Part shown: positions 3,782 to 63,485 of the stretch, piece after piece | How the letters are laid out: every line of letters begins with the position of its first letter | Position numbering within the stretch: the first letter of the stretch is position 1 | DNA from: an uncultured Pseudomonadales bacterium | Lineage (GTDB): Bacteria > Patescibacteriota > Microgenomatia > UBA1400 > PJMF01 | Length of the DNA stretch: 64,000 bases | Direction: 5' to 3' | NCBI GenBank assembly: GCA_964620965.1 | Contig: CAZUHV010000002.1 | Location: 48,863 to 112,862 of the forward strand | Translations under genes and position numbers: made by a program | The notes under the pieces: model-generated | Told to the model about the DNA's origin: nothing | What the model saw: only the letters and a program-made list of their open reading frames with translations | Database searches by the model: none

Positions 3782-5217
3782 AAAATATTTTAAAAAAATA
3801 TCCACTCCTTATTGTTTTAGCAGTTTTTGCATTCACACTCAGACTCTATAAAGTAAATACCCCGTTACTTGACTGGCACAGCTGGAGACAAGCCGATACT
3901 GCTTCTGTCACAAGAGAGTACACAAAAAAAGCACTTAATCCTTTGACCCCAACATATCATGATTTATCTAATATCCCTTCAGGAATGGATAACCCAAATG
4001 GCTATAGAATGGTGGAATTTCCTTTTTATAACATATTGGTTGCTGCAATACTCAAAGCTATTCCAGCACTCCCATTGGTACCAACAAGTAGAATTGTTTC
4101 AGCTCTTTTTTCTATTGGAACGCTTTTTTGTTTGTTTTTTCTTGCTAGAAGTTACTATGGTAAAAAAGTTGGGTACCTTACTGCGTTCTTTTTCGCAGTA
4201 TTGCCATATTCAGTGTATTATTCTAGGGTAATTTTGCCAGAGCCTATTATGGTTTTTTTCTCAACACTTTCTATTACTGCGTTTAGATTCTATATTAAAA
4301 AACCATCTGCTAAAACTTATTGGACTTCACTCATCTCACTCATGCTTGCGCTACTGCTCAAGCCATTTGTTGCATTTTTAATTCCTGTATATGCAGTTAT
4401 CTTATTCGAAGAAAGGAAATTAAAAGCTGTTCTCACAGATATAAGACTGTATGCATATGCAGTATTGGCAGTTATTCCTTTTATGCTTTGGAGATACTGG
4501 ATAGCAAAGTTCCCAGAGGGAATTCCTGCTTCTGACTGGCTTTTAAATGGAAACGGAATTCGCTTCAGACCAGCTTGGTTTAGGTGGTTGGGGTATGAAA
4601 GAATTACAAAACTAATTCTTGGATATGTTGGCGTCATTTTTCTACCAATTAGCGTTATAAATCAACTAAAGAATAAAAAACTACTCATACCTGCATGGTG
4701 GCTTGGTATTGGTGTTTACTTTGCAGTAATTGCAACTGGAAACGTTCAACATGACTACTATCAAGCAATTACAACCCCAATTATTGCACTCACACTTGGA
4801 CATGCAGTGCTTGTGTTGGATAACTTTATTACAAAGAAAACGAATGCGCTTGTTTCTATTGCAGTTGTTGGAACTCTGATTATTGCTATGCTTACTTTGT
4901 CGTATAACCAAGTAAAAGGCTATTATAATATTAACCATTCAGAATATGAAAAGGCTGGAAAAGCAGCAGATGAATTGCTACCAAAAGATGCAAAAGTAAT
5001 TGCTCCACAATATGGAGGAGACACAGCATATCTCTATCAAATTAACAGAAGTGGATGGCCACTTGGATACGATATAGATAAAAAAATTGAAATGGGAGCA
5101 ACATACTATGTTTCAACATCATATGATGAAGAAGCAAAAGAACTAGAAGAGAAATACATGATAGTAGAAAAAACAAATGACTTTATCATCATTGATCTAA
5201 CTAAAACTAGAGAATAA
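3778..5217 (+). CDS. GT-C fold glycosyltransferase, ArnT/PMT-like (GT39/GT83 family)
   Basis: N-terminal YKVNTPLLDWHSWRQADTASVTREY motif typical of PMT_2/ArnT-type undecaprenyl/dolichyl-phosphate sugar transferases. About 11 TM helices followed by a C-terminal soluble domain. Confidence 0.6.
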   Translation: MKNILKKYPLLIVLAVFAFTLRLYKVNTPLLDWHSWRQADTASVTREYTKKALNPLTPTYHDLSNIPSGMDNPNGYRMVEFPFYNILVAAILKAIPALPLVPTSRIVSALFSIGTLFCLFFLARSYYGKKVGYLTAFFFAVLPYSVYYSRVILPEPIMVFFSTLSITAFRFYIKKPSAKTYWTSLISLMLALLLKPFVAFLIPVYAVILFEERKLKAVLTDIRLYAYAVLAVIPFMLWRYWIAKFPEGIPASDWLLNGNGIRFRPAWFRWLGYERITKLILGYVGVIFLPISVINQLKNKKLLIPAWWLGIGVYFAVIATGNVQHDYYQAITTPIIALTLGHAVLVLDNFITKKTNALVSIAVVGTLIIAMLTLSYNQVKGYYNINHSEYEKAGKAADELLPKDAKVIAPQYGGDTAYLYQINRSGWPLGYDIDKKIEMGATYYVSTSYDEEAKELEEKYMIVEKTNDFIIIDLTKTRE

Positions 5218-5222
5218 CTTGT

Positions 5223-6416
5223 ATGAAAATTTTAATGCTTACCCCATATTTACCATATCCGTTACTTTCTGGTGGACAGATAAGAACATACAACTTGCTT
5301 AAAAAATTAGCAAATAAACATGAAGTCACTCTTTTTTCATTGATAAAAAGCGAAGAAGAAAAAGAATATATTCCAGAATTAAAAAAATACTGCTCAAAAG
5401 TACGAGTTTTTAAGCGTTCCGAAAAGCCATTTACTCTAAAAAATATTTTCAAAACAGCTTTTTCATCTTATCCATTCTTGGTTATTAGAAACCACGCTCC
5501 ACAAATCATTAGTGCTGTAGAAACAGAACTTCAGTCGGAAAAATATGACTTAATTCATGCCGAGACCTTTTACATGATGCCTCATATTCCAAAAACAAAC
5601 ATTCCAACTATTCTTGTTGAGCAAACAATTGAGTATTTGGGTTATGAAAGTTATGCTAAAAAAACTCCATTTTTCCTCAGACCTATACTGAACATAGATA
5701 TTGAAAAAATTAGAAGGTGGGAAAAATTTTACTGGAACGCCTGCGATACACTCATTGTTATGAGCGAGGAAGACAAAAAATACATCGGAAAAGAAATTGG
5801 TGATTCAAAAAAAATTGAAGTTGTTGCAAATGGGGTAGATACTAGCTGGTTTGAAGAAATTAAGAAAAAAGTAACAAAAGTTCCAACTATACTCTCTGTA
5901 GGCACTTTTAAGTGGCTCCCAAATGTTGAAGCAGTAAAATTCTTAGTTACGAAAGTGTGGCCACTTGTGAAAAAAGAGTTACCAAATGTGCAACTAAAAA
6001 TTGTTGGAAATGCACCAACCGAAGATGTCTATAAATACGAAAAAGATGATTCTACAATTACTGTTATCGGCAGAATTCCAGATATCAGAGATGCATTTGC
6101 AACATCAGATGTTTTAATGGCCCCAGTATTTAGCGGCAAAGGGACAAGATACAAAGTTTTAGAAGCTATGGCTTCTGGAACACCAATTGTTGCTACAACA
6201 ACTGCTGTGGAAGGTTTGGAAGTCGAAAATGGAGTTCATGTCATGACTAGCAATACCCCAGAAGGAATGGCAAAACTTGCTGTTGAGCTTCTGAACGACC
6301 AAGAAAAAAGAAAAAAAATGGCAATAAATGGCAAAAAATTTGTTAAAGAAAATTATGACTGGTCACTTATTTCGCACAAACTTGATATGATCTACCAAAG
6401 AATTGGAAGTAAATAA
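5223..6416 (+). CDS. glycosyltransferase family 4 (GT-B)
   Basis: MKILMLTPYLPYP...SGGQ N-terminus. C-terminal EAMASGTPIV...E motif of GT4/GT1 retaining glycosyltransferases. Confidence 0.75.
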   Translation: MKILMLTPYLPYPLLSGGQIRTYNLLKKLANKHEVTLFSLIKSEEEKEYIPELKKYCSKVRVFKRSEKPFTLKNIFKTAFSSYPFLVIRNHAPQIISAVETELQSEKYDLIHAETFYMMPHIPKTNIPTILVEQTIEYLGYESYAKKTPFFLRPILNIDIEKIRRWEKFYWNACDTLIVMSEEDKKYIGKEIGDSKKIEVVANGVDTSWFEEIKKKVTKVPTILSVGTFKWLPNVEAVKFLVTKVWPLVKKELPNVQLKIVGNAPTEDVYKYEKDDSTITVIGRIPDIRDAFATSDVLMAPVFSGKGTRYKVLEAMASGTPIVATTTAVEGLEVENGVHVMTSNTPEGMAKLAVELLNDQEKRKKMAINGKKFVKENYDWSLISHKLDMIYQRIGSK

Positions 6417-6430
6417 AAGGTACCTAAACT

Positions 6431-7312
6431 ATGGCAAAAACAAAGCACCCCGATTTAGAAATTATTATTGTTAACTATAACAGTCAATTCTGGCTCAAGA
6501 AAACACTCTCTACATTAAAAGAGTTCTACTTAGACAAAACAAAGAAGTTTGTTGTTACAACTGTGGTTGATAATGCCTCAGAGGATGACTCTCTTAAAAT
6601 GATTGGAAGGGAGTTTCGTTGGGTTAACGTTATAAAACTGAAAGAAAATTTTGGCTTTGCTGTGGCAAATAACGCAGCACTTAGAGAAACAAAAGCAAAG
6701 TATGTTATGTTACTTAATTCTGATGTTGAGTTTACAGAAAAATCAAACCTTGATATTTTACTTCGGTTTTTAGATGATAAACCAAAAGTTGGTGTTATTA
6801 CTCCTAGAATTGAGTTTACTAACGGAGAAATAGACCCTGCGTGTCATAGGGGAGAACCAACAATTTGGGCCTCATTTACATACATGAGTGGACTAGAAAA
6901 TCTCTTGCCAACTAGTAAATGGTTTGCTGGGTATCATCAAACATATAAAAATTTCAGAAATATTCATACTATCGATGCATGTTCTGGTGCTGCAATGATA
7001 GTTCGAGGAGAACTTTTGGAAGACGTTGGACTTTTAGATGAACGCTTTTTTATGTATGCAGAAGATCTTGATTGGTGTAAAAGATTTCGAGAAGCTGGTA
7101 ATTTAGTTGTATATAACCCAGAAGTAATAGTCATCCACCACAAATATAAATCTGGCATTAAAAATACCTCTCAATCAATAGCAAGAAAAACTCGTAAGCA
7201 TTTTTACGACACCATGCTACAATACTATGACAAACACTACTTGGAAAGTTATCCAAGATTTGTTAGAAACATTATTAAGTACATTTTAGTAATAAAAAAA
7301 GGAGCACTATGA
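6431..7312 (+). CDS. glycosyltransferase family 2
   Basis: EIIIVNYNS...VVDNASEDDS and an NSD motif. GT2 fold. Confidence 0.75.
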   Translation: MAKTKHPDLEIIIVNYNSQFWLKKTLSTLKEFYLDKTKKFVVTTVVDNASEDDSLKMIGREFRWVNVIKLKENFGFAVANNAALRETKAKYVMLLNSDVEFTEKSNLDILLRFLDDKPKVGVITPRIEFTNGEIDPACHRGEPTIWASFTYMSGLENLLPTSKWFAGYHQTYKNFRNIHTIDACSGAAMIVRGELLEDVGLLDERFFMYAEDLDWCKRFREAGNLVVYNPEVIVIHHKYKSGIKNTSQSIARKTRKHFYDTMLQYYDKHYLESYPRFVRNIIKYILVIKKGAL

Positions 7313-7791
7313 ACTACCTTACTGAATTTAAAATTCAGCAACTTCGTACAAAAAATTTAACTGCTGCAGTTGAAACAGTAGCTATAACAATGGGAGCTGT
7401 AATGATCAACATGTTGGTCCCACAACTCTTACTTAAATATGTCTACACTGATCCAACAGCATTTGGTTTAGAAGCACCTGCAGTTTTCACATACCTTCCT
7501 TTAGTAACATATGCAGTTGCGCTTGGTTACTTCTTCTATGCAATGGTTGGAAACTTTGTTAGATGTAGAAAAGCAAACGCTTTAGAACAAGAATTTATTC
7601 TTACTGGCGGTTCTTGTGGTGACGGTTGTTGTGGAGATGGCTGTTGTTCTACTGAATCTCAAGATGAAGAAATCAGCGAAGATGAGTTAAAAGAACTCGA
7701 AAGAATCGTTGACGAAGCATTAAAACCATCAAAAAAATCAACAAAAGCTACTGCTAAAAAAACAGCAAAGAAGAAGACAGCTAAGAAATAA
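7309..7791 (+). CDS. small membrane protein with a Cys-rich GDGCC repeat and a lysine-rich C-terminal tail
   Basis: 160-aa ORF. ATGA overlap with the upstream GT2 gene, i.e. translational coupling. Two hydrophobic helices, then GGSCGDGCCGDGCC, an acidic segment and KKSTKATAKKTAKKKTAKK. A hairpin plus T-run terminator follows. Confidence 0.5.
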   Translation: MNYLTEFKIQQLRTKNLTAAVETVAITMGAVMINMLVPQLLLKYVYTDPTAFGLEAPAVFTYLPLVTYAVALGYFFYAMVGNFVRCRKANALEQEFILTGGSCGDGCCGDGCCSTESQDEEISEDELKELERIVDEALKPSKKSTKATAKKTAKKKTAKK

Positions 7792-7814
7792 TTTTGTAAA
7801 ATTTAGCATAAAAG

Positions 7815-7852
7815 TAAAAAACCGCCAGTTTTTAAAGCTGACGGTTTTTTTT
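7815..7852. terminator. bidirectional intrinsic terminator between convergent genes
   Basis: A-run, then CCGCCAG...CTGACGG hairpin (1 mismatch), then T8. It sits between the + gene ending at 7791 and the - gene ending at 7949. Confidence 0.55.
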
Positions 7853-7948
7853 GCTCATTTTACAATTTGTTGTGGATTTGGGCAGGCATTCTGCGTAAGC
7901 CACAACTCATATTTTAACAATTAAACGATTTAATTTTGATTCATTTTT

Positions 7949-10900
7949 TTATTGGCAACTACTCGGATAGACATAAATGTTATTCGAGTGTGCATAGTAG
8001 GGCGTATTCAGCGCCGTTACCCATATTTCGTACTGAAGACTACAATCCAAACCAGTCACTGTGTACGTTTCAGTATTTGCAGGCAAGTACACAAAGAAAG
8101 TATCGGCAGATGTAGTGGCTTTGTAGCCGAGCCGATACTCTAGTTCAATGTTTGAATTATCATTCCACACTACCGAAATAGAGGTTGTCGTTGAGGAAGT
8201 CTTATGAAGATCTGTTGGGGCATTAGGGGTTGGACCTTCAACTGGATCACAGGCGTTTGTGTTTGCACTTATAAAGTTGCTTTCCGAGTAATACAGATTG
8301 CCGTTATCCCAGTTTATCACGCGCACTACAAAATTGTATTGTGTTTCGCACTCTAAACCAGAAACTGTGTAGCTCTCAGTATTCGCAGCAACTGTGGGAT
8401 TAAACCATTCCCCACCATCTGCTTGATACCAGACTTCAAAATTATCCTCAATCGTGGAGTTATCGTCCCACGCGACGGTAATTGAGTTTTGGCCTACAGT
8501 TGTTACATGAAGGCCTGAGGGAGCGTTGGGAGTTGGGCCTTCTTGAGGAGGCGGCGAGCCACCAGGTTTTACTACCAAAGGGAGATATATTGCACCATCC
8601 CAAACAGGTTCAACATAACAACTTGGTGTAGAAACCGCAACCAAGTTTGGTGTAGCAGAGTCACCCCAGTTGTTGAAGGCCTTCACCAAGTAATGATAGT
8701 CTGTTCCACAAGGAAGGTCATTGAAAGTCCATGACGTTGTATAGCGGCTATTGATAGTCGCAACCAACGCATAGAAATCATCATCCACATGTTCGTAGAT
8801 ATGATACCCTTGCGTAGAACTATCTGTGCTTTGTTCCCACTCCACAGTGATTGACTGGTTGTCATTTTCCTCTGCCGACATGACAAATTGGCCTAAGGCC
8901 AAGTTGCCATTGTTATTTGAATACCCCCATGCGCTTTGTGGCATTTCGGGGGAGCCATCACAGTATTCGTTGTCGAACACTGCGAATGAGGAAATAACAG
9001 AATCGCCTTCGCCAACACTGATTGAAACACCGTTATTCAAGGCGTCATTTCTAAAGGTTGTCATGCTTGTTGAAAAACATTTATCTCCACCCTGATAGTT
9101 AGCGTGTTCCCAAACCTTAATTGACCAACCTGCCTTAATCCGCAAACTGGAAATTTGATCATTCCAGTTTGTTCCACACCAATTTGTTAAATCAGCGGCA
9201 GATGTTGGACCATGTCCACCGCAATTGGAAAACTGCACGCCTTCGTCTTGGTAGACAATGTAGTCATGAGTCTCAATAAGGGGATCTTGGCAAAGATCAA
9301 AGTTAAACACTTCTAGACCAACAATCTGATACGGCCAGCCAGCCGCATTTAGATTAGGCACGCTGCGATTAAAGCAGAATGCCTGATTGACGCTTTGCCG
9401 TTTGTCAATTCGGTACAAAACTACTGAGCTACCCGTTTTCAAACTCAGACTACCAGCATAGAAATACTGGTGGTCGTGAAAACCAGTGTAGTAGCTTGGA
9501 CCAGAGCCTTGATATCCAGTCCCGCTAAAGAATTGAACGTTAGGTGGTTGGGTTGGATTGGGTGGATCAGTAGGACAGACATCCCTGTTATACACGAAAA
9601 CTGACTGAATTTTCGTCTGCCAGTCATTGTGATCTTGTAGGTTAGGAACATTTGAGTTCCAACATTCACTCATACCCTGCATGTTGTCATCACGATAAGT
9701 GATAACCGACCAACCATTGGGGATCTGCATACTATAGCCTTCAGCATTTGGCTCGTTGTCGAGCCCTACATCAAAGGTATATAGCATCGCACCTTCATAG
9801 TTAGGGTATTGGAAGAGCTTAACAGCTCCACCACTACCAGTTTGAGGACCAGGAGGAAGAGGTTGTGTATCTGGAGAAGGCGGCGTATCAGGTGAATTTG
9901 TCGGGCAACTCCCAGCAATTATTTTTACACTCCCAACAAAATTAGCAATGCTAAAATGTGTCCCTGGGTAGAAATCTTTGTTCATATCCCACAGGTCACC
10001 AGAATAACAGGCAGACATTGTTGGAGGTGATTGTGGATTGTAAATAATCACACTATAACCTGGTTGTATGTCCAACGAATACGGGGTAAAATTACCAATA
10101 TTAATTTCTTGGCCGACTTGATTAGTCAACCAAATATTACCATTGCAATGTGTTTGGTCAAACAGACGCAAAAGCTCACTACTATGGTTGACTGATGAGT
10201 TATCTATACAATTCGAGTACGATGAAGGGTCAATGGTTCTGTAAATCCATGATTTGTAATTTGGGACATTTTGAAAACCCATTGTTTCCACATATCCACA
10301 GAAAGGAGTGCTTCCTGTAGAAATAATGGCTCCTAAAATGGTTTGACCATTTTTCACATATACAAGTGGACCACCACTGTCACCCGGACAAGTTGACCTC
10401 CCACTAATAACGGCTGCAACAAATTTATCTTGATTTTCGCTTTGAGTTAAATTATTGAAACTTATCTCAAGCAAATCATTTGATGTCTGAATCAGACCGA
10501 TATTGCCGTAACCCATTGCAACAAATTGTTCATGATTATCAATGTAAGTTGAAATATCGTCTGGCGTGCCAATTTGTATTGGTGGTCTTGAAGAAGGTCT
10601 AGATAACTTCCATAAAGCTAAATCAGTTTCCCCGGGGTTTAAATCTCCACCACTAAATGTAATTGGTTCACCATTTAGTTGAATTCTTTCAACATTTCCA
10701 TTCCAAATATGATCTCCACCAATTATGGCTGTATATACGGCATCACTACCATATGTGTAAAAGGCACCACCTGAAGTTGATCTCCAACAATGATGTGCTG
10801 TTAAAATCCAATCAGGATGAATTAAAACTCCGCCACAGAATTTATCATTTGTATAAGATTCATTTGTAGCAGTTAATTCAACCATCCAAGGATACTTACC

Positions 10901-11044
10901 GTTAGCATTTGTGCCATTATGAATTGCGCTAATCTTTTGTGTTGGATTTAAAACCAACATCAAAAATATCGAACAAAAAACTAGAAATACATGTTTAGTT
11001 TTCACTTTATTAACCTTTGTTGACAGTAAGCAATTTACTGTCAA
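7949..11044 (-). CDS. secreted trypsin-like (S1) serine protease with beta/gamma-crystallin-like repeats and three C-terminal fibronectin type III domains
   Basis: N-terminal signal peptide (KVNKVKTKH + VFLVFCSIFLMLVL). Catalytic His in LTAHHC and Ser in GDSGGPL. A Pro-rich linker, then Greek-key-like YxxxNYxG repeats, then three ~90-aa FN3-like repeats (PTPNAPSGLHVTTVGQNSITVAWDDNS... and PTPNAPTDLHKTSSTTTSISVVWNDNS...). Apparent TTG start at 11042-11044. Confidence 0.8.
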   Translation of the reverse strand: MTVNCLLSTKVNKVKTKHVFLVFCSIFLMLVLNPTQKISAIHNGTNANGKYPWMVELTATNESYTNDKFCGGVLIHPDWILTAHHCWRSTSGGAFYTYGSDAVYTAIIGGDHIWNGNVERIQLNGEPITFSGGDLNPGETDLALWKLSRPSSRPPIQIGTPDDISTYIDNHEQFVAMGYGNIGLIQTSNDLLEISFNNLTQSENQDKFVAAVISGRSTCPGDSGGPLVYVKNGQTILGAIISTGSTPFCGYVETMGFQNVPNYKSWIYRTIDPSSYSNCIDNSSVNHSSELLRLFDQTHCNGNIWLTNQVGQEINIGNFTPYSLDIQPGYSVIIYNPQSPPTMSACYSGDLWDMNKDFYPGTHFSIANFVGSVKIIAGSCPTNSPDTPPSPDTQPLPPGPQTGSGGAVKLFQYPNYEGAMLYTFDVGLDNEPNAEGYSMQIPNGWSVITYRDDNMQGMSECWNSNVPNLQDHNDWQTKIQSVFVYNRDVCPTDPPNPTQPPNVQFFSGTGYQGSGPSYYTGFHDHQYFYAGSLSLKTGSSVVLYRIDKRQSVNQAFCFNRSVPNLNAAGWPYQIVGLEVFNFDLCQDPLIETHDYIVYQDEGVQFSNCGGHGPTSAADLTNWCGTNWNDQISSLRIKAGWSIKVWEHANYQGGDKCFSTSMTTFRNDALNNGVSISVGEGDSVISSFAVFDNEYCDGSPEMPQSAWGYSNNNGNLALGQFVMSAEENDNQSITVEWEQSTDSSTQGYHIYEHVDDDFYALVATINSRYTTSWTFNDLPCGTDYHYLVKAFNNWGDSATPNLVAVSTPSCYVEPVWDGAIYLPLVVKPGGSPPPQEGPTPNAPSGLHVTTVGQNSITVAWDDNSTIEDNFEVWYQADGGEWFNPTVAANTESYTVSGLECETQYNFVVRVINWDNGNLYYSESNFISANTNACDPVEGPTPNAPTDLHKTSSTTTSISVVWNDNSNIELEYRLGYKATTSADTFFVYLPANTETYTVTGLDCSLQYEIWVTALNTPYYAHSNNIYVYPSSCQ

Positions 11045-11174
11045 CGATAAAAAAATCGTTTAATTGTTAATGAGCAATCTTTGTTTTTAAGACAAAGACC
11101 TATATTATAATAAATTTTGATATTTTAGTCAAGAAAATTGGTTAAAATACAAAAAATAATGATACAATATTTGT

Positions 11175-11786
11175 ATGGCAAAAAAATCAAAAATTAAAAA
11201 ACAACATATTAAAGTTATAATGTTACTCACTATTGTAGTAACTGTTTTAGCGATTTATTTTGGTCCTCTTTCTAAACCAAAAAAAGAGGTTTCGCAAAAA
11301 AATAGTTTTCAAAATTCAAACGCTGCACAAACATACAGTGGTACATATTTTTCTCTTAAGACTCCAGATAATTAGTATTTTGGTTCAGACATAAACGATG
11401 ACTATGAATGGATTAGAATATCTAGACAACCAGAAAAAAACAATGACAATATTGATGTGTCTAACATAGAAATTGTAGCAAGAAAAATACAAAATAATGA
11501 AACAATTAGCTCAAGAATTTCAGAATTGAACAGGGCAAAAAAAGAATATGAAGTAAATAAATCAGGGTCACTTGAAGATATTGAAAAAATTGAATTCAAA
11601 GGTCCAGAAGCCGTCAGTTATGTAATTCATATTAATATACCAAACGAAGAAATATCTGAAACAAGATCAGTTTCTGTCATTAAAAATGATATCATTTATT
11701 TATTGCGTTTAATATCATACGGAGAAAGTTTAGATCAATTATCAGAAGTTATAACTGAAAATTCTCTAATTTTCGACAATGTATGA
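11175..11786 (+). pseudogene. member of the MAKKS-anchored paralog family, interrupted by a single in-frame TAG (11373-11375)
   Basis: The six-frame ORFs 11175-11375 and 11457-11786 are in the same frame and separated only by one TAG. The N-terminus MAKKSKIKKQHIKVIMLLTIVVTVLAIYF matches the intact paralogs at 13164 and 13955. The C-terminal part (IIYLLRLISYGESLDQLSEVI) aligns with the paralog C-terminus (IVYEIEWILTAKNMNNLENII). Confidence 0.5.
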
Positions 11787-11806: not shown

Positions 11807-12004
11807 ATGATAAAAAAAAATTTATTAGTAATTATTTTTATTGCAATATTAGTTAGTACTTTAGCAATTTTTGTTAAACCAAAATCAGTTAAAAATGAAG
11901 TTTTGACTGATCAATCTATTATTTCAGTTAATAAAGAAAAGACATTTGCAGAATTATCAATGGAAAAAGTTACTCAGAATGAAGACCGATATTATATAAT
12001 ATAA
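11807..12004 (+). pseudogene. 5' gene fragment (65 codons) of the paralog at 13955-14647
   Basis: An 85-bp stretch (11819-11903) is identical to 13985-14069, and similarity continues for about 190 bp. The ORF stops early and has no family -10 box upstream. Confidence 0.45.
11819..11903. repeat. 85-bp perfect direct repeat (copy 1) of 13985-14069
   Basis: Base-by-base comparison of the N-terminal coding sequence (aatttattagtaattatttttattgcaatattagttagtactttagcaatttttgttaaaccaaaatcagttaaaaatgaagttt). Confidence 0.8.
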
Positions 12005-12055
12005 AGACAATCATATCAAGTGAATAAGTGAATAAATGTTTTTAGTAAAGCTAAA

Positions 12056-12556
12056 TTATTTTTTTTTAGAAAGATAACTTTTTGTAAAGATAAAAGTAGC
12101 AATAAATAATATGATAGTATGTAGAACTACAACAGTAAAATTATAATCTGAAAAACTATACTTGGTTAAAAAATGAAAAGTATTCAAATTCTTAGGAGTT
12201 GACGTGAAATAAGACAAAATAGAAATAAATAAAGCAGCAGTGAACAATTTGTAAAAATTTTGTTCTATGAATTTTAATTTTAAAAGAATATTAAAAAATC
12301 CAAAAACTAATACCAACTGAAGAAGTACAACAAGATAAATATTTAAAGTGTCTGAATAGTAATAATAGCCATAATCATATAAAAAAACCGGTTGAGTAAG
12401 ACTATAATGAAAAATAAACATTGTAAACACTCTGAATAATAGTTCATTAATTATTGAGAAAATAAATGTACTAACTAAAATTGATAAAGTATTATTTTTT
12501 TCCATATATTTATCATTGTACCAAAAATTATCATTCAAATATAGAAGATTATTCAT
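12056..12556 (-). CDS. polytopic membrane protein (4-5 TM), island paralog 1
   Basis: 166-aa ORF, strongly hydrophobic and AT-rich. Paralogous to 12628-13113, with the same length class, TM pattern and C-terminal ...FIFTKSY / ...FYFFMNKK. Confidence 0.5.
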   Translation of the reverse strand: MNNLLYLNDNFWYNDKYMEKNNTLSILVSTFIFSIINELLFRVFTMFIFHYSLTQPVFLYDYGYYYYSDTLNIYLVVLLQLVLVFGFFNILLKLKFIEQNFYKLFTAALFISILSYFTSTPKNLNTFHFLTKYSFSDYNFTVVVLHTIILFIATFIFTKSYLSKKK

Positions 12557-12627
12557 TCAATAGCAACTTTTAACCATTCGATAAAAAGATATTTAAATCA
12601 ATTGCAACCTAAAAGATAACGGTAATA

Positions 12628-13113
12628 TTATTTATCATTCTTTTTATTCATAAAAAAATAAAAAGCGAAAAATATTATTAAGACATGAACAACTATTACA
12701 AAGTATGTGATAAAAAATGGTGCAAAGCCAAAAAACAATGTCTCAAAAAAATTTATTTTATAATACGGAGTTGCTGTACCATAAGAAATTATTGAAAGAA
12801 TTGTTGATGCAATGAATATTTGATAGATTTCCCCTTTTTGTTTTATGATTTTTACCAAAATTAAAAAAACAATTATGAAAAATACAAATTGAATAAATAT
12901 AAAGATTGAAAATGGAACATTCGCAAGATTAAAATATAAACGACCATAAAGGCTCTGTGAATAAAAACCAATATCAGGAATTAATGATTCGTAATAATTG
13001 GCAGCATAATAATTCGCAACAACGCGTAAATAATATTCATTCAATAATGATATAAAAAAAGCAATTAGTGCTAAAAAAAATTTTTTAACAAAAGTAAAAT
13101 CATTAGTTTTCAT
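12628..13113 (-). CDS. polytopic membrane protein (4-5 TM), island paralog 2
   Basis: 161-aa ORF. Paralog of 12056-12556. Divergent from the + strand family member at 13164. Confidence 0.5.
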   Translation of the reverse strand: MKTNDFTFVKKFFLALIAFFISLLNEYYLRVVANYYAANYYESLIPDIGFYSQSLYGRLYFNLANVPFSIFIFIQFVFFIIVFLILVKIIKQKGEIYQIFIASTILSIISYGTATPYYKINFFETLFFGFAPFFITYFVIVVHVLIIFFAFYFFMNKKNDK

Positions 13114-13163
13114 ACATGAATAATTATATCAATATCTAACTGAATGAATGTTATAATTTTTAT

Positions 13164-13904
13164 ATGGCAAAGAAATCAATAATTAAAAAACAACATATAA
13201 ATATTATTGTTGTCTTAGCAGTAATACTCACAGGTATAACAATATTTGGAAAGCAATACTTCTCAAAACTGCAATACAATACAAGATTCCATACTTGTAT
13301 TAATCAAGATGGCTCTACTTTTGAAACCACTGAACCATGTGAAAACTATTTACAAAAGGAAGAAACTTCAAATACTACCGTTAGCTTAGATCCTGATAAA
13401 CCAGATTTAGTTACCTTTCAAGCAGGATATTTTGCTGTAAAATATCCAAATAATTGGAATTATGTTGGTCATGATGGTGGTTTAGGAAATTTATTTGAAT
13501 ATCTACAAATAACTGATGTACAAGTCGAAGAAATGTATGATGGAAATCCAAATCTTCCGGCAATAATTTCCATTCAAGCAAATAAAAAAGGATTTTTCGG
13601 TGATTTTATTGGGAATGCTCATTATACGGGAAAATCTCTTGATGAATATATCAAAGATACTCTAAAAGAATTGGGGAACAATTACAAATCAAGAAGAGTT
13701 GATGGAACATCAGGCTGGTTAGTTGAAGAACCATCAGCTGATTGTTGTAAAATAAATATGTATCAATTAGTAATACATAATGACATATTCTATAATATTT
13801 CTTTAAATGTAAATGCATCAAATATGAAGGAGCTAGACGAAAAATCAAAAAAATATAGAAATGATTTTGATACAGTTCTTGATAACTTTAAATTTAATGA
13901 CTAG
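13164..13904 (+). CDS. signal-anchored (type II) surface protein, MAKKS family, with a variable C-terminal domain containing a CC pair
   Basis: MAKKSIIKKQHI + one TM helix, then a 200-aa hydrophilic domain. TATAAT sits 6 nt upstream of the ATG. Confidence 0.6.
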   Translation: MAKKSIIKKQHINIIVVLAVILTGITIFGKQYFSKLQYNTRFHTCINQDGSTFETTEPCENYLQKEETSNTTVSLDPDKPDLVTFQAGYFAVKYPNNWNYVGHDGGLGNLFEYLQITDVQVEEMYDGNPNLPAIISIQANKKGFFGDFIGNAHYTGKSLDEYIKDTLKELGNNYKSRRVDGTSGWLVEEPSADCCKINMYQLVIHNDIFYNISLNVNASNMKELDEKSKKYRNDFDTVLDNFKFND

Positions 13905-13954
13905 AGGTTAAGCATTTAATGAATTTATGACTTATTCTTGGTTACAATAGCTAT

Positions 13955-14647
13955 ATGGCAAAAAAATCAATAATGAAAAAACAAAATTTATTAGTAATTA
14001 TTTTTATTGCAATATTAGTTAGTACTTTAGCAATTTTTGTTAAACCAAAATCAGTTAAAAATGAAGTTTCGGTTGATCACACTACTGTTTCAGTTGATAA
14101 AGGAAAGACTTATGCAGAATTATCAATGGAAAAAGTTTCTCAGAATAAAGACGGAACTAGTACATATAATGGAGATTATTTTTCAACAACTTATCCAGAA
14201 AATTGGTATAAATGGTTTTTTGGTAGGGGAGTAAGTCTTGAAAACTTCCAAGTAAATTCGTTTTCTGAGGATAAAGTAGATGATATCTATGCAGAAGGTT
14301 CTTTCATAACTATAAATGTTGAAACTAAGGATTATAGACCCGTTTCAACATTAGAGGGGAAAATTGATTCTATAGAAGAATTAAAGAAGAATGCAGGTGA
14401 AAATACTAATGTAACATATAAAGTTGGACAATTTAAGTCAACACAAGCGGTTTACTCAGAAATTAAATCAAGTTCACATGGTTCAAAAAATCCAAGTTAT
14501 ATTAACACAATTTGGTTAATTAAAAGTGATATTGTCTATGAAATTGAATGGATATTAACTGCAAAAAACATGAACAATCTAGAAAATATAATATCTAGAG
14601 ATAAACTTGTTCATAATCAAATTGTTAATTCATTTGAATTTAAGTAG
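13955..14647 (+). CDS. signal-anchored (type II) surface protein, MAKKS family, with a divergent C-terminal domain
   Basis: MAKKSIMKKQNLLVIIFIAILVSTLAIFV TM anchor. TACAAT sits 6 nt upstream of the ATG. The C-terminal domain is unrelated in sequence to that of 13164. Confidence 0.6.
   Translation: MAKKSIMKKQNLLVIIFIAILVSTLAIFVKPKSVKNEVSVDHTTVSVDKGKTYAELSMEKVSQNKDGTSTYNGDYFSTTYPENWYKWFFGRGVSLENFQVNSFSEDKVDDIYAEGSFITINVETKDYRPVSTLEGKIDSIEELKKNAGENTNVTYKVGQFKSTQAVYSEIKSSSHGSKNPSYINTIWLIKSDIVYEIEWILTAKNMNNLENIISRDKLVHNQIVNSFEFK
13985..14069. repeat. 85-bp perfect direct repeat (copy 2) of 11819-11903
   Basis: See copy 1 at 11819-11903. Confidence 0.8.
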
Positions 14648-14687
14648 AGAGTCGAACATCAATTCCAATTTTGCTATAATCAGAAGT

Positions 14688-15041
14688 ATGAATATTTTGG
14701 ATTCAATTACATTTTTTTATCATCTTTATGGAGTACTTGTTTTGCTTTTTCTCTTCATATTTTTTGTTGTTTTAACATTTGTAGGGCTCAAGACAAAAAG
14801 AAGAGTAATATTTTTCCCTTCATTATTGATCGTAGTTATTTCCTTACTAATTATGTTTTTTGGTAGAAAATGTTGGTCGAGTGGGTGGGGTGGATTGTCA
14901 GGAATTGGTGATCAATGTACATGTAATGGCTTAGTTGTTAAATTTTATGTACCAAGCCCATTGTTATCGTATCAGTACACATGTTTTGGTATTGTTGAGG
15001 AGCCCGCTGAAATTTTTTCCTCAAGTAAATTTTACAGATAA
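14688..15041 (+). CDS. small two-TM membrane protein with a Cys-containing C-terminal tail
   Basis: ORF from the ATG at 14688 (MNILDS...). Extended -10 TGcTATAAT at 14672-14680, 7 nt upstream. Two hydrophobic helices, then CWSSGWGGLSGIGDQCTCNG...YTCFG. Confidence 0.35.
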   Translation: MNILDSITFFYHLYGVLVLLFLFIFFVVLTFVGLKTKRRVIFFPSLLIVVISLLIMFFGRKCWSSGWGGLSGIGDQCTCNGLVVKFYVPSPLLSYQYTCFGIVEEPAEIFSSSKFYR

Positions 15042-15076
15042 ACAAAGTATTACTTTATCTATAGTATAATGCATAT

Positions 15077-16174
15077 ATGAGAATCGGAATTGATGCTCGG
15101 TTATCAGGCGCTCAACACGCAGGAATCGGCAGATATACACAAAACTTAATTTTAGAATTGCTTAAAAAAAACAAAACCACAACGTATGTTTTGTTTTTCT
15201 ACACTCAAGAACAAGCAGAAGCAGTTTTGGGAACAGAAATTTCAAATAAAAAAGTTGAAATTGTTATTACACCCGTTCGTCATTACACAGTGACAGAACA
15301 ACTCAAGCTTCCAAAACTTTTCAAAGCACAAAAATTAGACTTACTGCATGTACCTCACTTTAATATTCCCATTTTTTATAAAGGTAAATTAATCATTACA
15401 ATTCACGACCTTTTATGGCACGAATACAAGGGTGGTTCTGTTACTACATTAAACCCGGTTATGTATTTCTTAAAATACTTGTTCTATAGATTAGTAACTA
15501 GAATTGCAGTTTACAAAGCAGAAAAAATTATTGTGCCTGCAGAAACTATTAAAAATACTGTTACTAAATTCTATCCAAAAACAGAAGAAAAAATTACAGT
15601 GACAAAAGAAGGTGCATATATTGTTGATCCCAAAAAACTTAAAAACTTACCTCAACTTAAAAACACACTTTTGTATGTTGGCTCACTCTATCCACATAAA
15701 AACTTAAAACTTATTTTGCAAGCATTACCATCACTCCCAAAATATAAACTTTTGATTGCCGGTTCAAGAAACGTCTTTCAAGATAAAGTGAGAGAGTATG
15801 TAAAATATAAACAAATTGAAGAACAAGTAGAATTTCTTGGATATGTCCCAGATGAAGACCTTGCAAAACTTTACCAACAAGTCACTGCACTTGTACAGCC
15901 ATCATTTTCCGAAGGATTTGGCCTAACTGGAGTAGAAGCAATGTCCTTTGGAACTTCTGTACTAGCTTCAGATATTCCTATTTTTAAAGAAATTTACCAA
16001 GATGTAGCCTTTTATTTCAGCCCTCATTCTATTGCATCTTTTATTCAAGCAGTTCATGCCCTTGAACAAAAATCAGATGCACAAAATAAAGAAGGGTTGC
16101 AACTTGCGAAAAACTATTCTTGGGAAAAAATGGCAGAGCAAACAATAGAGTTATATAAAGAAATTTTAAAATAA
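15077..16174 (+). CDS. glycosyltransferase family 4
   Basis: C-terminal EGFGLTGVEAMSFGTSVLASDIPIFKE motif, the GT4 signature. Confidence 0.75.
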   Translation: MRIGIDARLSGAQHAGIGRYTQNLILELLKKNKTTTYVLFFYTQEQAEAVLGTEISNKKVEIVITPVRHYTVTEQLKLPKLFKAQKLDLLHVPHFNIPIFYKGKLIITIHDLLWHEYKGGSVTTLNPVMYFLKYLFYRLVTRIAVYKAEKIIVPAETIKNTVTKFYPKTEEKITVTKEGAYIVDPKKLKNLPQLKNTLLYVGSLYPHKNLKLILQALPSLPKYKLLIAGSRNVFQDKVREYVKYKQIEEQVEFLGYVPDEDLAKLYQQVTALVQPSFSEGFGLTGVEAMSFGTSVLASDIPIFKEIYQDVAFYFSPHSIASFIQAVHALEQKSDAQNKEGLQLAKNYSWEKMAEQTIELYKEILK

Positions 16175-55568: not shown

Positions 55569-56150
55569 CTAGTATTCTGCTGATTCAATCCAGCCGAACT
55601 CACTTGTAGGCCAGTATCTTAAAAATGCTTTACCAACAATATCCTCTTTGCCAATTGGACCCCAAACACGTGAGTCACTAGAGTACTCTCTGTTATCACC
55701 GCTCACAAAATACTCATTAGGACCCATTGTGACTGTTCTACCTTCAATAAATTTTCCTGGAAGAGTTTTAAAATCACTTGGAATGTATGTTTCAGCCAGT
55801 GCTTCTCCGTTTACGTAATATGCATTATCGTGTAAGGCAATTGTATCTCCAGGAACAGCTAGGATTCTCTTTATAAAATCACAACCTGTCCCAGTAGGGC
55901 AACTTGCTTCTTCTGGAGCATGAAACACAACAATGTCGCCACGTTGTGGCTCACCAGTTCTATACACAATTTTATTCGTTAATAGATAATCACCAGAGTT
56001 GAATGTAGGATACATAGATCTTCCATTCACTTGGTGTGGTTGCATGAAAAATAGATAGACAATCAAAAAAAATGAAGCACCAATAGTGAGCGTTTCCGCC
56101 AAATCTAAAAATAAACTACTAAATGATTTCAAGATATTTTTCATACTCAA
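55569..56150 (-). CDS. lepB: signal peptidase I
   Basis: GRSMYPTF (Ser box), GDNREYSSDSRVWGP. S26 family. Confidence 0.85.
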   Translation of the reverse strand: MSMKNILKSFSSLFLDLAETLTIGASFFLIVYLFFMQPHQVNGRSMYPTFNSGDYLLTNKIVYRTGEPQRGDIVVFHAPEEASCPTGTGCDFIKRILAVPGDTIALHDNAYYVNGEALAETYIPSDFKTLPGKFIEGRTVTMGPNEYFVSGDNREYSSDSRVWGPIGKEDIVGKAFLRYWPTSEFGWIESAEY

Positions 56151-56204
56151 GATTATGCTATTTCATAACTGGAGTTTCAAGCCCTAAACGTGCATAATAT
56201 AAGC

Positions 56205-63298: not shown

Positions 63299-63485
63299 AT
63301 TATTTTGGACCCGATCTTTTTCATCAAAAAAAGTCGAAGGTACAAAAAATGCAAGGCTCAGGCCCTCTCTTTTTGCAAAGCAAAAAGGAGCTGGCATGAA
63401 AGATGCAACTTGAATGAAATTCAAGTTGCAAAAAAGCCAAAAACTAAAAACCAAAAAAGGTATAAATTAGGTACAATATACACAC

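What the first reader, a model, noticed from the sequence alone, without database searches (positions are those of the whole stretch)
7949..11060. About 1030-aa secreted trypsin-like protease fused to beta/gamma-crystallin-like and triple FN3 modules, with its TTG start codon buried in an 11-bp hairpin
Seen: the catalytic triad motifs of family S1 (TAHHC, GDSGGPL) sit behind a signal peptide. Downstream come Greek-key-like YxxxNYxG repeats and three FN3-like repeats, each starting PTPNAP. The apparent start, TTG at 11042-11044, lies inside a perfect inverted repeat GTTGACAGTAA-gcaat-TTACTGTCAAC (11019-11045). A second hairpin AACGAT-A6-ATCGTT follows at about 11043-11060 in the 5' leader. Inference: a large extracellular, adhesion-domain-bearing protease in a reduced genome suggests a role in host or partner interaction. 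The start-codon hairpin suggests translational control, thermo- or factor-dependent, or an operator.
Basis: partly seen in the sequence, partly recalled or inferred. Interest (0 to 1): 0.55.

Follow-up and report, generated by a model that had tools for sequence, protein, structure and literature searches.

The report
Secreted protease mRNA with paired ends
A candidate-phyla (Patescibacteria) bacterium encodes a large secreted chymotrypsin-type protease on a crystallin/fibronectin stalk; its supposed "start-codon hairpin" is really a leader stem, and the leader carries a conserved 25-base match to the gene's own tail, a rare kind of bacterial mRNA end-to-end pairing.

Summary
The protein description holds. 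It has a Sec-type signal peptide, an S1A (chymotrypsin-fold) protease, about four beta/gamma-crystallin-like modules (three with direct support) and three FN3 modules.

The start-codon claim does not hold. Orthologue N-termini, in-frame stops in two orthologous loci, a Shine-Dalgarno site and the signal peptide all place the start at GTG 11005-11003. The TTG at 11044 lies in the 5' UTR.

The 11-bp hairpin (P2, 11045-11019) is real. Five related loci keep its structure while its sequence is almost completely replaced. It never covers the SD or the true start, and it stays folded from 10 to 55 C. The second hairpin is not conserved.

New finding: the conserved leader block (11077-11053) is complementary to two conserved 3'-UTR segments (7931-7914 and 7858-7851, just before the terminator). 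Compensatory changes support the pairing. It is the only such pair among 62 ORFs in the window. The closest known case is the B. subtilis hbs 5'/3'-UTR interaction.

In a 94%-identical sister locus the signal peptide, head and first module are replaced by an M23-like cassette. More distant relatives carry CHAP or NAGPA heads.

Function is inferred: a secreted cell-envelope or host-surface hydrolase whose mRNA ends pair to control its decay.

The parts
11104..11132 (-). Sigma-70-type promoter TTGACT-17 nt-TATAAT. The transcript probably starts near G11100/G11099.
   Evidence: It matches 11 of 12 consensus positions. The same -35/17 nt/-10 layout sits at the same distance from GGTCTTTG in L006, L004, L081 and L002.
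11076..11100 (-). P1: hairpin at the 5' end of the transcript (GGUCUUUGU / ACAAAGAUU).
   Evidence: RNAfold predicts it in 4 of 5 loci. The closing pair covaries U-A/C-G. It is absent from L002.
11053..11077 (-). Conserved leader block UUGCUCAU + UAACAAUUAAACGAUUU. This is the 5' strand of the long-range helices LRb (11077-11070) and LRa (11069-11053).
   Evidence: It is nearly invariant in 5 loci. The 18-nt stretch 11070-11053 has exactly one other copy in the 64-kb window, inverted, at 7914-7931.
11043..11060 (-). It is not conserved, and its 5' arm belongs to LRa.
   Evidence: It is present only in the window and L006. L004, L081 and L002 have no matching 3' arm.
11019..11045 (-). P2: perfect 11-bp hairpin with a 5-nt loop in the 5' UTR. 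It contains the non-start TTG (11044-11042).
   Evidence: The repeat is. The structure is kept in 5 loci with almost complete sequence turnover; 52 of 55 cells are paired and most positions show 2-4 pair types. Its energy is -13.2 kcal/mol.
11014..11018 (-). Shine-Dalgarno-like AAAGG, 8 nt upstream of the GTG.
   Evidence: Read from the sequence. The equivalents are AAAGGUGAG in L081 and UAGGUGAU in L004/L002. It is about 75% unpaired in folding.
11003..11005 (-). True start codon GTG, giving a 1018-aa product.
   Evidence: Orthologues P0004 (MKKRYLILFLCSIFL) and P0002 (MNKLRMFF) start at this aligned position. L004 has TAG and L002 has TGA in frame just upstream. A 1018-aa call, P0078, exists.
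10925..11002 (-). Signal peptide (M)KTKH-VFLVFCSIFLMLVL-NPTQKISA. The predicted cleavage is A|IHNG.
   Evidence: The n/h/c regions were judged by inspection. I41 aligns with chymotrypsinogen Ile16. No signal-peptide predictor was available.
10235..10924 (-). S1A (chymotrypsin-fold) serine protease head, with His in TAHHC (10787-10801), Asp in TDLALW (10610-10627) and Ser in GDSGGP (10367-10384).
   Evidence: Pfam Trypsin E=1.2e-24. The best PDB matches are chymotrypsin, tryptase, kallikrein and VesB.
9905..10177 (-). Module A, a Cys-bounded beta-rich module of unassigned fold. It belongs to the swapped head cassette.
   Evidence: Alignment A1. The non-homologous segment against L006 ends at 9884.
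9827..9904 (-). Pro/Thr/Ser-rich linker PTNSPDTPPSPDTQPLPPGPQTGSGG. The 3' boundary of the head-cassette swap lies here.
   Evidence: blastn against L006: 94% identity resumes at 9883.
8960..9835 (-). Stalk of three beta/gamma-crystallin domains: B 9569-9835, C 9290-9541, D 8960-9262.
   Evidence: B: AF2 pLDDT 94.8, Foldseek match to clostrillin TM 0.79. C: hit by the B-domain HMM at 1e-9 to 1e-13. D: Crystall_3 28.7 bits and Inhibitor_I36 23.4 bits, both above cut-off.
7952..8899 (-). Three FN3 modules, approximately 8615-8899, 8240-8536 and 7952-8233. A YLPLVVKPG linker lies at 8561-8590.
   Evidence: Pfam fn3 E=6.5e-27 with 3 stretches. Module borders are approximate, taken from motifs.
7914..7931 (-). 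LRa': 3'-UTR segment AAAUCGUUUAAUUGUUAA, 17 nt after the stop codon. It is the perfect complement of leader 11070-11053.
   Evidence: It is conserved in 5 loci, with one compensatory change in L081 (U>C paired with A>G).
7870..7905 (-). H3: 3'-UTR hairpin (UUGUGG...GCAG-AAUGC-CUGC...CCACAA) between LRa' and LRb'.
   Evidence: In the outer stem, 4 of 6 pairs show changes on both sides. RNAalifold predicts it.
7851..7858 (-). LRb': AUGAGCAA, complementary to leader UUGCUCAU (11077-11070). It lies 6 nt before the terminator stem.
   Evidence: 100% of cells are paired in 5 loci, with one compensatory change (L002 A>U with U>A) and one G.U (L081).
7816..7844 (.). Bidirectional intrinsic terminator CCGUCAG-9 nt-CUGGCGG, flanked by A8 and U6. 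It is shared with the convergent 160-aa gene (7309-7791, +).
   Evidence: Sequence. It is invariant in 5 loci. The scan missed it because its loop is 9 nt.

Best explanation
The gene (GTG 11005 to TAA 7949, 1018 aa) encodes a Sec-secreted modular hydrolase.

Protein. Signal-peptide cleavage at A|IHNG would expose the Ile16-equivalent N-terminus directly, so the chymotrypsin-fold head would be active on export without a propeptide. The head has a chymotrypsin-like S189/G216/G226 pocket. It sits on a stalk of beta/gamma-crystallin domains and three FN3 modules. This stalk is shared with relatives that carry M23, CHAP or NAGPA heads. The stalk is therefore most likely a surface- or cell-wall-targeting scaffold, and the head an exchangeable 'warhead' acting on another cell's envelope or on the bacterium's own.

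Transcript. A near-consensus promoter makes a roughly 3.3-kb monocistronic mRNA with these parts in order:
- a 5'-terminal hairpin P1;
- a 25-nt conserved block;
- hairpin P2;
- a free SD and the GTG start;
- after the stop codon, the complement of the block, split by hairpin H3;
- the terminator.

I propose that the block pairs in cis with the 3' UTR (LRa about 17-18 bp, LRb 8 bp). This would lock the 5' hairpin and the terminator into one junction and govern access of ribonucleases, most likely stabilising the message as in B. subtilis hbs.

Status of each step. Shown: the domain identities, the start site, the conserved structures and the complementarity with compensatory changes. Inferred: that pairing occurs in vivo, its effect on decay, and the protein's target.
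For: Start site and protein:
- Orthologue N-termini align at the GTG.
- In-frame stops lie upstream of the start in L004 and L002.
- A 1018-aa gene call exists.
- Pfam Trypsin and fn3 match. I41 aligns with Ile16, and the triad and pocket align with chymotrypsin.
- Module B has the crystallin fold. Pfam supports module D and the B-domain HMM supports module C.
- Related heads are M23, CHAP and NAGPA.
- The head cassette is swapped within an otherwise 88-94% identical locus.

RNA:
- P2 is kept in 5 loci with 52/55 cells paired and near-total sequence turnover, including G.U pairs that are valid only on the sense strand.
- An 18-nt perfect 5'/3' complement is unique among the 62 ORFs of the window; all others reach 12 nt or less.
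- On the concatenated UTR alignment, 95.3% of cells pair against 29-48% when partners are slid. Eight pairs change on both sides against 1-3 when slid. None of 500 shuffles reaches the observed values. Both LRa and LRb carry a compensatory change.
- RNAalifold predicts the same helices independently.
- A mini-mRNA folds into exactly this architecture with z = -9.7.
- Between window and L081 the UTRs are more conserved (72-78%) than the coding stalk (68%).
- Conservation stops at the promoter and the terminator, which are the transcript's ends.

Precedent: the hbs 14-nt 5'/3' interaction lies next to a leader hairpin and just upstream of the terminator, and was proven with compensatory mutants (PMC5737220).
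Against: - There are only five distinct loci, all from one narrow Microgenomates-type clade, so the statistics rest on few independent events.
- No transcript ends, RNA-RNA contacts or half-lives are available.
- The two partners are about 3.1 kb apart on a translated mRNA, so formation in vivo is not assured.
- Compensatory changes would also be kept by DNA inverted repeats that are homogenised by recombination.
- More distant relatives (L080, L082, L084, L085) lack any such complementarity, so the feature is not needed by the protein family as a whole.
- The direction of the effect is unknown: it could stabilise the mRNA or create an RNase III cleavage site.
- The protein's substrate is inferred only from the domains found in relatives.
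Confidence: 0.55

Rival explanations
1. The 5'/3' duplex (about 17-18 + 8 bp) is an RNase III processing or decay site, like the stems that flank rRNAs or the icaR 5'/3' duplex. Cleavage would remove the protective 5' hairpin and the terminator, and would lower or mature the message rather than stabilise it.
For: The combined helix length, about 25 bp if LRa and LRb stack, is in the range RNase III accepts (established knowledge). A relative's contig encodes RNase III (L002 892-1575). icaR shows that a 5'/3' duplex can be an RNase III substrate (PMC3868564).
Against: The helix is interrupted by a three-way junction, and LRa alone is 17-18 A-U-rich bp. No cleavage data exist. Placing P1 and the terminator immediately outside the duplex fits protection at least as well.
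Confidence: 0.2
2. The 3' UTR (LRa'-H3-LRb'-terminator, about 115 nt) is released as a 3'-UTR-derived small RNA. This RNA would pair in trans with the leader of its own mRNA, or of paralogues, giving feedback regulation.
For: The segment looks like an sRNA: a single-stranded seed, a hairpin and an intrinsic terminator. The complementarity and covariation fit trans pairing as well as cis pairing.
Against: No promoter-like site precedes it. Only one target site exists in the 64-kb window. Nothing indicates processing.
Confidence: 0.1
3. The repeats act on DNA. They would be inverted repeats flanking the gene that serve a site-specific inversion (ON/OFF switch) or mobilise the cassette.
For: An 18-bp perfect inverted pair flanks the gene. 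The head cassette is exchanged between strains. A duplicated 5' fragment lies in L002. Recombination would also keep the repeats matched.
Against: - No recombinase or transposase lies within about 5 kb.
- All 8 contigs show the same orientation.
- L004 and L002 have 1-nt indels inside the repeat, and L081 has a G.U-type mismatch. RNA helices tolerate these better than recombinase sites do.
- The 3' copy is split by a covarying hairpin.
- Conservation extends beyond the repeats to the promoter and terminator.
- The swap boundaries (10998 and 9884) do not coincide with the repeats.
Confidence: 0.08
4. One reading: translation starts at TTG 11044 inside the hairpin. Melting of the hairpin, or a bound factor, controls initiation; alternatively the palindrome is an operator.
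For: The TTG is in frame with no stop before the GTG in the window. The palindrome is perfect.
Against: - Orthologues start at the GTG/ATG position, and L004 and L002 have in-frame stops between hairpin and start.
- No SD precedes the TTG.
- The two window-versus-L006 differences in this stretch would both be non-synonymous.
- The hairpin stays closed from 10 to 55 C.
- The palindrome's sequence is not conserved, only its pairing.
Confidence: 0.03

Closest known systems
B. subtilis hbs mRNA 5'/3'-UTR long-range interaction (Braun, Durand & Condon 2017, PMC5737220)
   Same: The leader has hairpins. A single-stranded leader segment is fully complementary to a 3'-UTR segment just upstream of the terminator. 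The pairing does not cover the SD. Its proposed role is to limit ribonuclease access.
   Different: Here the pairing is about 25 bp in two parts split by a hairpin, against 14 bp in hbs. It spans a 3.1-kb ORF, whereas hbs is a far shorter message. It is supported by compensatory changes in natural variants rather than by experiment. The organism is a Patescibacterium and the gene encodes a secreted hydrolase.
S. aureus icaR 5'/3'-UTR pairing (Ruiz de los Mozos et al. 2013, PMC3868564)
   Same: The 3' UTR of an mRNA base-pairs with its own 5' UTR, creating a double-stranded region that RNase III could cut.
   Different: icaR pairs with the SD and blocks initiation. Here the SD and start are outside the duplex, and constraint folding shows no consistent effect on RBS accessibility.
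RNase III processing stems flanking 16S/23S rRNA (established knowledge)
   Same: Sequences 5' and 3' of a kilobase-scale RNA pair to form a long closing helix.
   Different: This RNA is a translated mRNA and the helix is shorter and interrupted. No cleavage evidence exists.
5'-terminal stem-loop mRNA stabilisers (E. coli ompA leader, B. subtilis aprE leader; recalled from memory, not checked in a paper here)
   Same: A hairpin lies within a few nucleotides of the 5' end, followed by an AU-rich single strand and a second hairpin close to the RBS. aprE also encodes a secreted protease.
   Different: Those leaders act alone. Here the single-stranded part has a conserved partner in the 3' UTR.
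Microbial beta/gamma-crystallin domains (clostrillin 3i9h, flavollin 3hzb, Protein S 1nps)
   Same: Module B superposes with TM 0.76-0.79 and 26-30% identity on clostrillin and flavollin (17% on Protein S). The double Greek-key signature is present.
   Different: Here the domains form a 3-4-domain stalk behind a catalytic head. Module B lacks the canonical N/D-N/D-x-x-S/T-S calcium motif; module D has WNDQISS.
Bacterial secreted S1A proteases such as Vibrio cholerae VesB (4lk4)
   Same: The chymotrypsin fold, the catalytic triad and a C-terminal non-catalytic extension.
   Different: The crystallin + FN3 extension differs, there is no propeptide between the signal peptide and the Ile16 equivalent, and the pocket is chymotrypsin-like rather than trypsin-like.

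Membership tests
Peptidase family S1A (chymotrypsin fold) | Profile match above the curated threshold | tested here: met
   Pfam Trypsin 87.8 bits against a cut-off of 20.6, covering 5-220 of 220 profile positions.
Peptidase family S1A (chymotrypsin fold) | His57-Asp102-Ser195 triad in order within conserved motifs | tested here: met
   TAHHC, TDLALW and GDSGGP are present. The His and Ser motifs align with chymotrypsin; Asp is assigned from its motif and its order between them.
Peptidase family S1A (chymotrypsin fold) | Free Ile16-type N-terminus created by cleavage | tested here: inconclusive
   I41 aligns with Ile16 directly after the predicted signal-peptide site A|I. Cleavage itself cannot be tested here.
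Peptidase family S1A (chymotrypsin fold) | Trypsin-type specificity (Asp189) | tested here: not met
   Position 189 is Ser (STCPGDSGGP), with Gly216 and Gly226. This is a chymotrypsin-like pocket.
Beta/gamma-crystallin domain | Profile match above the curated threshold | tested here: met
   Module D in the isolated stalk: Crystall_3 28.7 bits against 27.3, and Inhibitor_I36 23.4 against 21.1. It is below threshold in the full-length scan (22.3). Family members P0224 and P0229 pass PF00030.
Beta/gamma-crystallin domain | Double Greek-key fold | tested here: met
   AF2 model of module B has pLDDT 94.8. All top 29 Foldseek hits are beta/gamma-crystallins, the best with TM 0.79 and rmsd 1.7 A.
Beta/gamma-crystallin domain | Calcium-binding motif N/D-N/D-x-x-S/T-S | tested here: inconclusive
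   Module D has WNDQISS. Module B has NDWQTKIQS, which carries an insertion. Binding cannot be tested here.
Fibronectin type III | Profile match above threshold, in three copies | tested here: met
   fn3 94 bits against a cut-off of 25, with 3 stretches.
Sec signal peptide | Basic n-region, hydrophobic h-region, and a c-region with small residues at -1/-3 | tested here: inconclusive
   MKTKH / VFLVFCSIFLMLVL / NPTQKISA from the GTG start, judged by inspection. No predictor was available. P0004 and P0002 conserve it.
mRNA 5'/3'-UTR long-range interaction (hbs type) | Complementary segments in the leader and in the 3' UTR upstream of the terminator | tested here: met
   The 18-nt and 8-nt perfect complements are unique in the window. 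LRb' lies 6 nt before the terminator stem.
mRNA 5'/3'-UTR long-range interaction (hbs type) | Pairing maintained in evolution by compensatory change | tested here: met
   LRa and LRb each have one pair changed on both sides, plus one G.U. Overall 95.3% of cells pair against <=48% when slid. RNAalifold agrees. Only 5 sequences are available.
mRNA 5'/3'-UTR long-range interaction (hbs type) | Both segments on one transcript, pairing in vivo, with an effect on decay | not testable with these tools
   The promoter and terminator are predicted only.
icaR-type translational block by the 3' UTR | The 3' UTR pairs with the SD or start region | tested here: not met
   The duplex ends about 35 nt upstream of the SD. 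Blocking the leader block changes RBS accessibility inconsistently, from -0.05 to +0.18.
RNA thermometer / start-codon sequestration | The SD or start codon lies in a stem that melts in the physiological range | tested here: not met
   The true SD and GTG are outside P2. P2 is -13.2 kcal/mol and stays closed from 10 to 55 C.
Invertible DNA segment | Flanking inverted repeats, a recombinase, and both orientations observed | tested here: inconclusive
   The repeats are present. No recombinase is found in the neighbouring genes. Only one orientation is seen in 8 contigs. Read-level data could not be searched.
Any Rfam family | Covariance-model match at the gathering score | tested here: not met
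   Nothing reaches threshold on the leader or the 3' UTR. The whole window yields only 3 tRNAs.

The most novel reading that the evidence does not exclude
The leader, stalk and 3' UTR form a conserved 'expression and delivery chassis'. The roughly 3.3-kb mRNA would be closed end-to-end by an evolutionarily maintained 25-bp 5'/3'-UTR duplex, which I found reported in no paper or Rfam family for Patescibacteria. Interchangeable lytic heads (S1 protease, M23, and in relatives CHAP or NAGPA) would be swapped into this chassis by recombination between the start codon and the first linker. Under this reading, end-to-end pairing is a dedicated control of a host-attack or cell-wall enzyme in an episymbiotic bacterium.
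Probability: 0.3. Interest if true: 0.75.

Novelty: new variant of a known kind. Interest (0 to 1): 0.6.

Why it matters
Base-pairing between the two ends of a bacterial mRNA has been proven in only a few cases, hbs and icaR among them, and those were found by experiment. This case has a longer, bipartite 5'/3' pairing supported by natural compensatory changes. It lies in an uncultivated, reduced-genome lineage whose RNA biology is essentially unknown. It is small enough to test in a heterologous reporter.

The clean replacement of the catalytic head inside an otherwise 94%-identical locus shows how such bacteria may diversify secreted enzymes aimed at cell envelopes. That bears on how Patescibacteria deal with hosts or neighbours.

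It also corrects the gene model. The public annotation starts at an internal ATG and loses most of the signal peptide.

Tried and rejected
- Scan of the metagenome collection for the leader core (TTAACAATT..AACGATTTTTT). It gave 73 hits, and none carried the extended leader, so all are chance matches.
- Two scans of species-representative genomes. There was no close relative and only one distant Anaerolineae fragment, so the organism had to be placed through FtsZ.
- AlphaFold on the whole 300-aa stalk with 6 sequences. pLDDT was 53.7, which is unusable. It was replaced by a single-module model.
- RNAduplex energies of 5' versus 3' UTR against shuffles. These were not discriminating in such AU-rich sequence. 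They were replaced by longest-complement and covariation tests.
- The idea that the leader block masks the RBS until the 3' UTR captures it. Accessibility changes were inconsistent across the five loci, so it was rejected.
- Thermosensor idea: rejected.
- Operator idea: rejected, because the palindrome sequence is not conserved and has no second copy.
- A mini-ORF (TTG CTC ATT AAC AAT TAA) in the leader. Its length and stop are not conserved in L004 or L002 and it has no SD, so it was rejected.
- Search for the same 5'/3' design in other genes of the window and in more distant relatives: none found.
- PADLOC gave only a weak LmuA match (22 bits), taken as generic protease similarity.
- The covariance model of the leader found no second copy in the held sequence. 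Its weak opposite-strand hits at the gene's 3' ends led to the 3'-UTR complement.

Full report
OBSERVATION

The ORF 7949..11044 on the minus strand reads 1031 aa from TTG.
- Pfam gives Trypsin at aa 45-267 (87.8 bits, cut-off 20.6) and fn3 in three stretches (94 bits). The crystallin families score below threshold in the full-length scan.
- A perfect repeat of 11 bp or more with a 3-8-nt loop occurs at two places in the window. Markov simulations give about 0.4 per 64 kb. On its own the repeat is therefore only mildly unusual.
- PTPNAP opens two FN3 modules, not three. The strict YxxxNYxG pattern does not occur; a looser Greek-key pattern occurs four times.

ORGANISM AND SETTING

The window carries a dcw cluster (murE, murF, murC, murA, ftsA, ftsZ), ileS and glyS. 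The closest named relatives of its FtsZ are Patescibacteria, Pacebacteria and Woesebacteria (87-74% identity). GC content is about 0.35. The neighbours of the protease gene are glycosyltransferases, a PMT_2 protein, a Wzy_C-like protein and small unassigned proteins. There is no recombinase.

START CODON

Four lines of evidence place the start at GTG 11005-11003, giving a 1018-aa product:
- The closest relatives begin MKKRYLILFLCSIFL... (P0004, 62% identity) and MNKLRMFFIF... (P0002, 76%). These align with VKTKHVFLVFCSIFL in the window.
- In their loci, in-frame stops (TAG in L004, TGA in L002) lie between the hairpin and the ATG.
- An SD-like AAAGG sits 8 nt upstream of the GTG, and nothing SD-like precedes the TTG.
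- One public gene call of 1018 aa uses the GTG (P0078). The NCBI-derived call of 1003 aa starts at an internal ATG and truncates the signal peptide.

From the GTG, the N-terminus is a textbook signal peptide: MKTKH / VFLVFCSIFLMLVL / NPTQKISA. The next residue, I41, aligns with chymotrypsinogen Ile16. Signal-peptide removal would therefore create the activating N-terminus directly. That last step is inference from established S1A biochemistry.

PROTEIN

Head. It is S1A: the best solved relatives are chymotrypsin, tryptases, kallikreins and VesB. The pocket residues S189/G216/G226 indicate chymotrypsin-like rather than trypsin-like specificity.

Stalk.
- Scanned alone, module D passes Pfam thresholds for Crystall_3 and Inhibitor_I36.
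- An HMM of module B also finds module C and bona fide crystallin proteins.
- A 25-sequence AlphaFold model of module B (pLDDT 94.8) matches clostrillin, flavollin, Protein S and hahellin, with TM up to 0.79.

Family size. A profile of the stalk finds 82 cluster representatives at E<=1e-30 and 465 at E<=1e-10 among 1.84 billion. Every named relative but one (a Maricaulis crystallin protein) is from Chloroflexota.

Heads found in front of the same modules:
- Trypsin;
- M23 (41 bits in P0211, near threshold in P0003/5/6 and P0228);
- CHAP (49.5 bits in P0208, 35 bits in P0009);
- NAGPA (98 bits in P0232);
- unassigned heads.

Head swap. L006 is 94% identical to window 9883..5265 and 88% identical to 11226..10999. 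The stretch between them (10998..9884: signal peptide, S1 head and module A) has no DNA similarity to the 1.4 kb in L006 that encode an M23-like head. The head is therefore an exchangeable cassette bounded by the start codon and the Pro-rich linker.

THE LEADER

Five distinct loci share the following elements: the window; L006 and L081, which have M23-like heads; and L004 and L002, which have S1 heads.
- A promoter with 17-nt spacing.
- GGUCUUUG... and hairpin P1 (absent in L002).
- A nearly invariant block aUUGCUCAUUAACAAUUAAACGAUUUU.
- A hairpin, P2, immediately or shortly upstream of the SD.

P2's sequence is almost entirely different in the window, L081, L004 and L002, yet 52 of 55 cells pair. 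Several pairs are G.U, which is valid only on the sense RNA strand. P2 never includes the SD or the start. It is -13.2 kcal/mol and stays closed from 10 to 55 C, while the SD remains about 75% unpaired. No Rfam family matches.

THE 3' UTR AND THE LONG-RANGE PAIRING

Weak opposite-strand hits of a leader covariance model at the 3' ends of three loci led to the 3' UTR.

After the stop codon come, in order:
- AAAUCGUUUAAUUGUUAA (7931-7914);
- a hairpin H3 (7905-7870);
- AUGAGCAA (7858-7851);
- the terminator CCGUCAG-n9-CUGGCGG-U6 (7844-7816), which is bidirectional and shared with the convergent gene.

Read together, the two segments are the exact complement of the leader block, in the correct antiparallel order.

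Evidence for the pairing:
- The 18-nt match has exactly two copies in 64 kb, inverted, one at each end of this gene.
- Among 62 ORFs in the window, no other reaches more than 12 nt of 5'/3' complementarity.
- All five loci keep the pairing.
- L081 changes U>C in the leader and A>G in the 3' UTR at the paired position.
- L002 changes A>U and U>A at another paired position.
- L081 has one G.U pair.
- The outer stem of H3 covaries at 4 of its 6 pairs.
- For the whole structure, 95.3% of cells pair against 29-48% with slid partners. Eight pairs change on both sides against 1-3 when slid. None of 500 shuffles reaches the observed values.
- RNAalifold predicts the same helices without being told.
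- A mini-mRNA, with the ORF replaced by a short and partly artificial linker, folds into P1 + LRb + LRa + P2 + H3 + terminator at -85 kcal/mol. Shuffles give -44 +/- 4, so z = -9.7.
- Conservation ends at the promoter on one side and the terminator on the other. In L002 the unit lies in a different downstream context. This fits a constraint on the transcript.

More distant relatives (L080, L082, L084, L085) have nothing comparable.

MECHANISM

The pairing leaves the RBS free. Constraint folding shows no consistent change in RBS accessibility when the block is sequestered. An icaR-like translational block is therefore unlikely.

The layout resembles B. subtilis hbs. In hbs, a 14-nt leader segment next to a hairpin pairs with a sequence just upstream of the terminator and restrains RNase Y cleavage, as shown by compensatory mutants (PMC5737220).

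My preferred reading is a cis interaction that ties the 5' hairpin and the terminator into one junction and controls decay, most probably by protection.

Alternatives:
- an RNase III site;
- a 3'-UTR-derived sRNA acting in trans;
- DNA inverted repeats used for inversion or mobility.

Several points argue against the DNA alternative: no recombinase nearby, a single orientation in all contigs, indels and a wobble-type mismatch inside the repeat, a covarying hairpin splitting the 3' copy, and conservation that follows the transcript's boundaries.

VERDICT

The start-codon-in-hairpin idea is wrong.

The region is nevertheless more interesting than proposed. It contains a structured leader, a conserved 5'/3'-UTR pairing and a swappable catalytic head.

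The evidence is comparative and rests on five loci from one narrow clade. All functional statements are therefore inferences awaiting transcript mapping and reporter tests.

Noticed in passing
L002 2743-2910: A duplicated fragment of the protease gene's 5' end (signal peptide through ...KFC, about 80% identical to window 10978-10835) lies in the intergenic space about 0.8 kb upstream of the intact gene, with no leader in front of it. It may be a footprint of cassette recombination or an assembly artefact.
   Followed up: partly
window 8561-8590; also P0006, and the C-termini of P0005/P0007/P0008: A short hydrophobic motif, (I/V)YLP(L/I)V, recurs between FN3 modules: IYLPLVVKPG here and VYLPIVTTP in P0006. 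It also forms the extreme C-terminus of relatives (…VLLPIVVSR, …IFLPLVRK). No known sorting or processing signal was identified.
   Followed up: no
window 2072-7312 and linkers at 9827-9904, 9542-9574: The protease gene lies next to a glycosylation cluster (Wzy_C-like, PMT_2, GT4, GT2). Its inter-domain linkers are Pro/Thr/Ser-rich, so the secreted protein might be O-glycosylated.
   Followed up: no
window 63404-63430: This is the only other perfect inverted repeat of 11 bp or more with a short loop in the window (GCAACTTGAAT-gaaa-ATTCAAGTTGC). On the minus strand a T-run precedes it, the same U-run-then-hairpin order as at P2. It is not a canonical terminator on either strand.
   Followed up: no
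L080, L083; P0207, P0217, P0218: Named distant relatives of the crystallin stalk are almost all Chloroflexota (Caldilineaceae, Roseiflexaceae, Aggregatilineales, Anaerolineae). P0005, on a GC-richer contig with an ISL3 transposase, shares 63% identity over the stalk. This hints at transfer of the module between Chloroflexota and this Patescibacteria clade.
   Followed up: partly
window 7309-7791 (+): The convergent 160-aa gene that shares the bidirectional terminator encodes a small membrane protein with a GGSCGDGCCGDGCCS motif and a Lys-rich tail. It has no Pfam match and is conserved next to the protease gene in L006.
   Followed up: no
window 12001-16000 and 56001-60000: Two stretches have clearly lower GC (0.275 and 0.299) than the rest of the window (about 0.35). 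The first holds several small ORFs with no family match, just upstream of the protease promoter region.
   Followed up: no
public annotation of P0001: The NCBI-derived protein (1003 aa) starts at an internal ATG (aa 29 of the TTG frame) and lacks the n-region and most of the h-region of the signal peptide. The deposited gene model is probably too short by 15 codons.
   Followed up: yes
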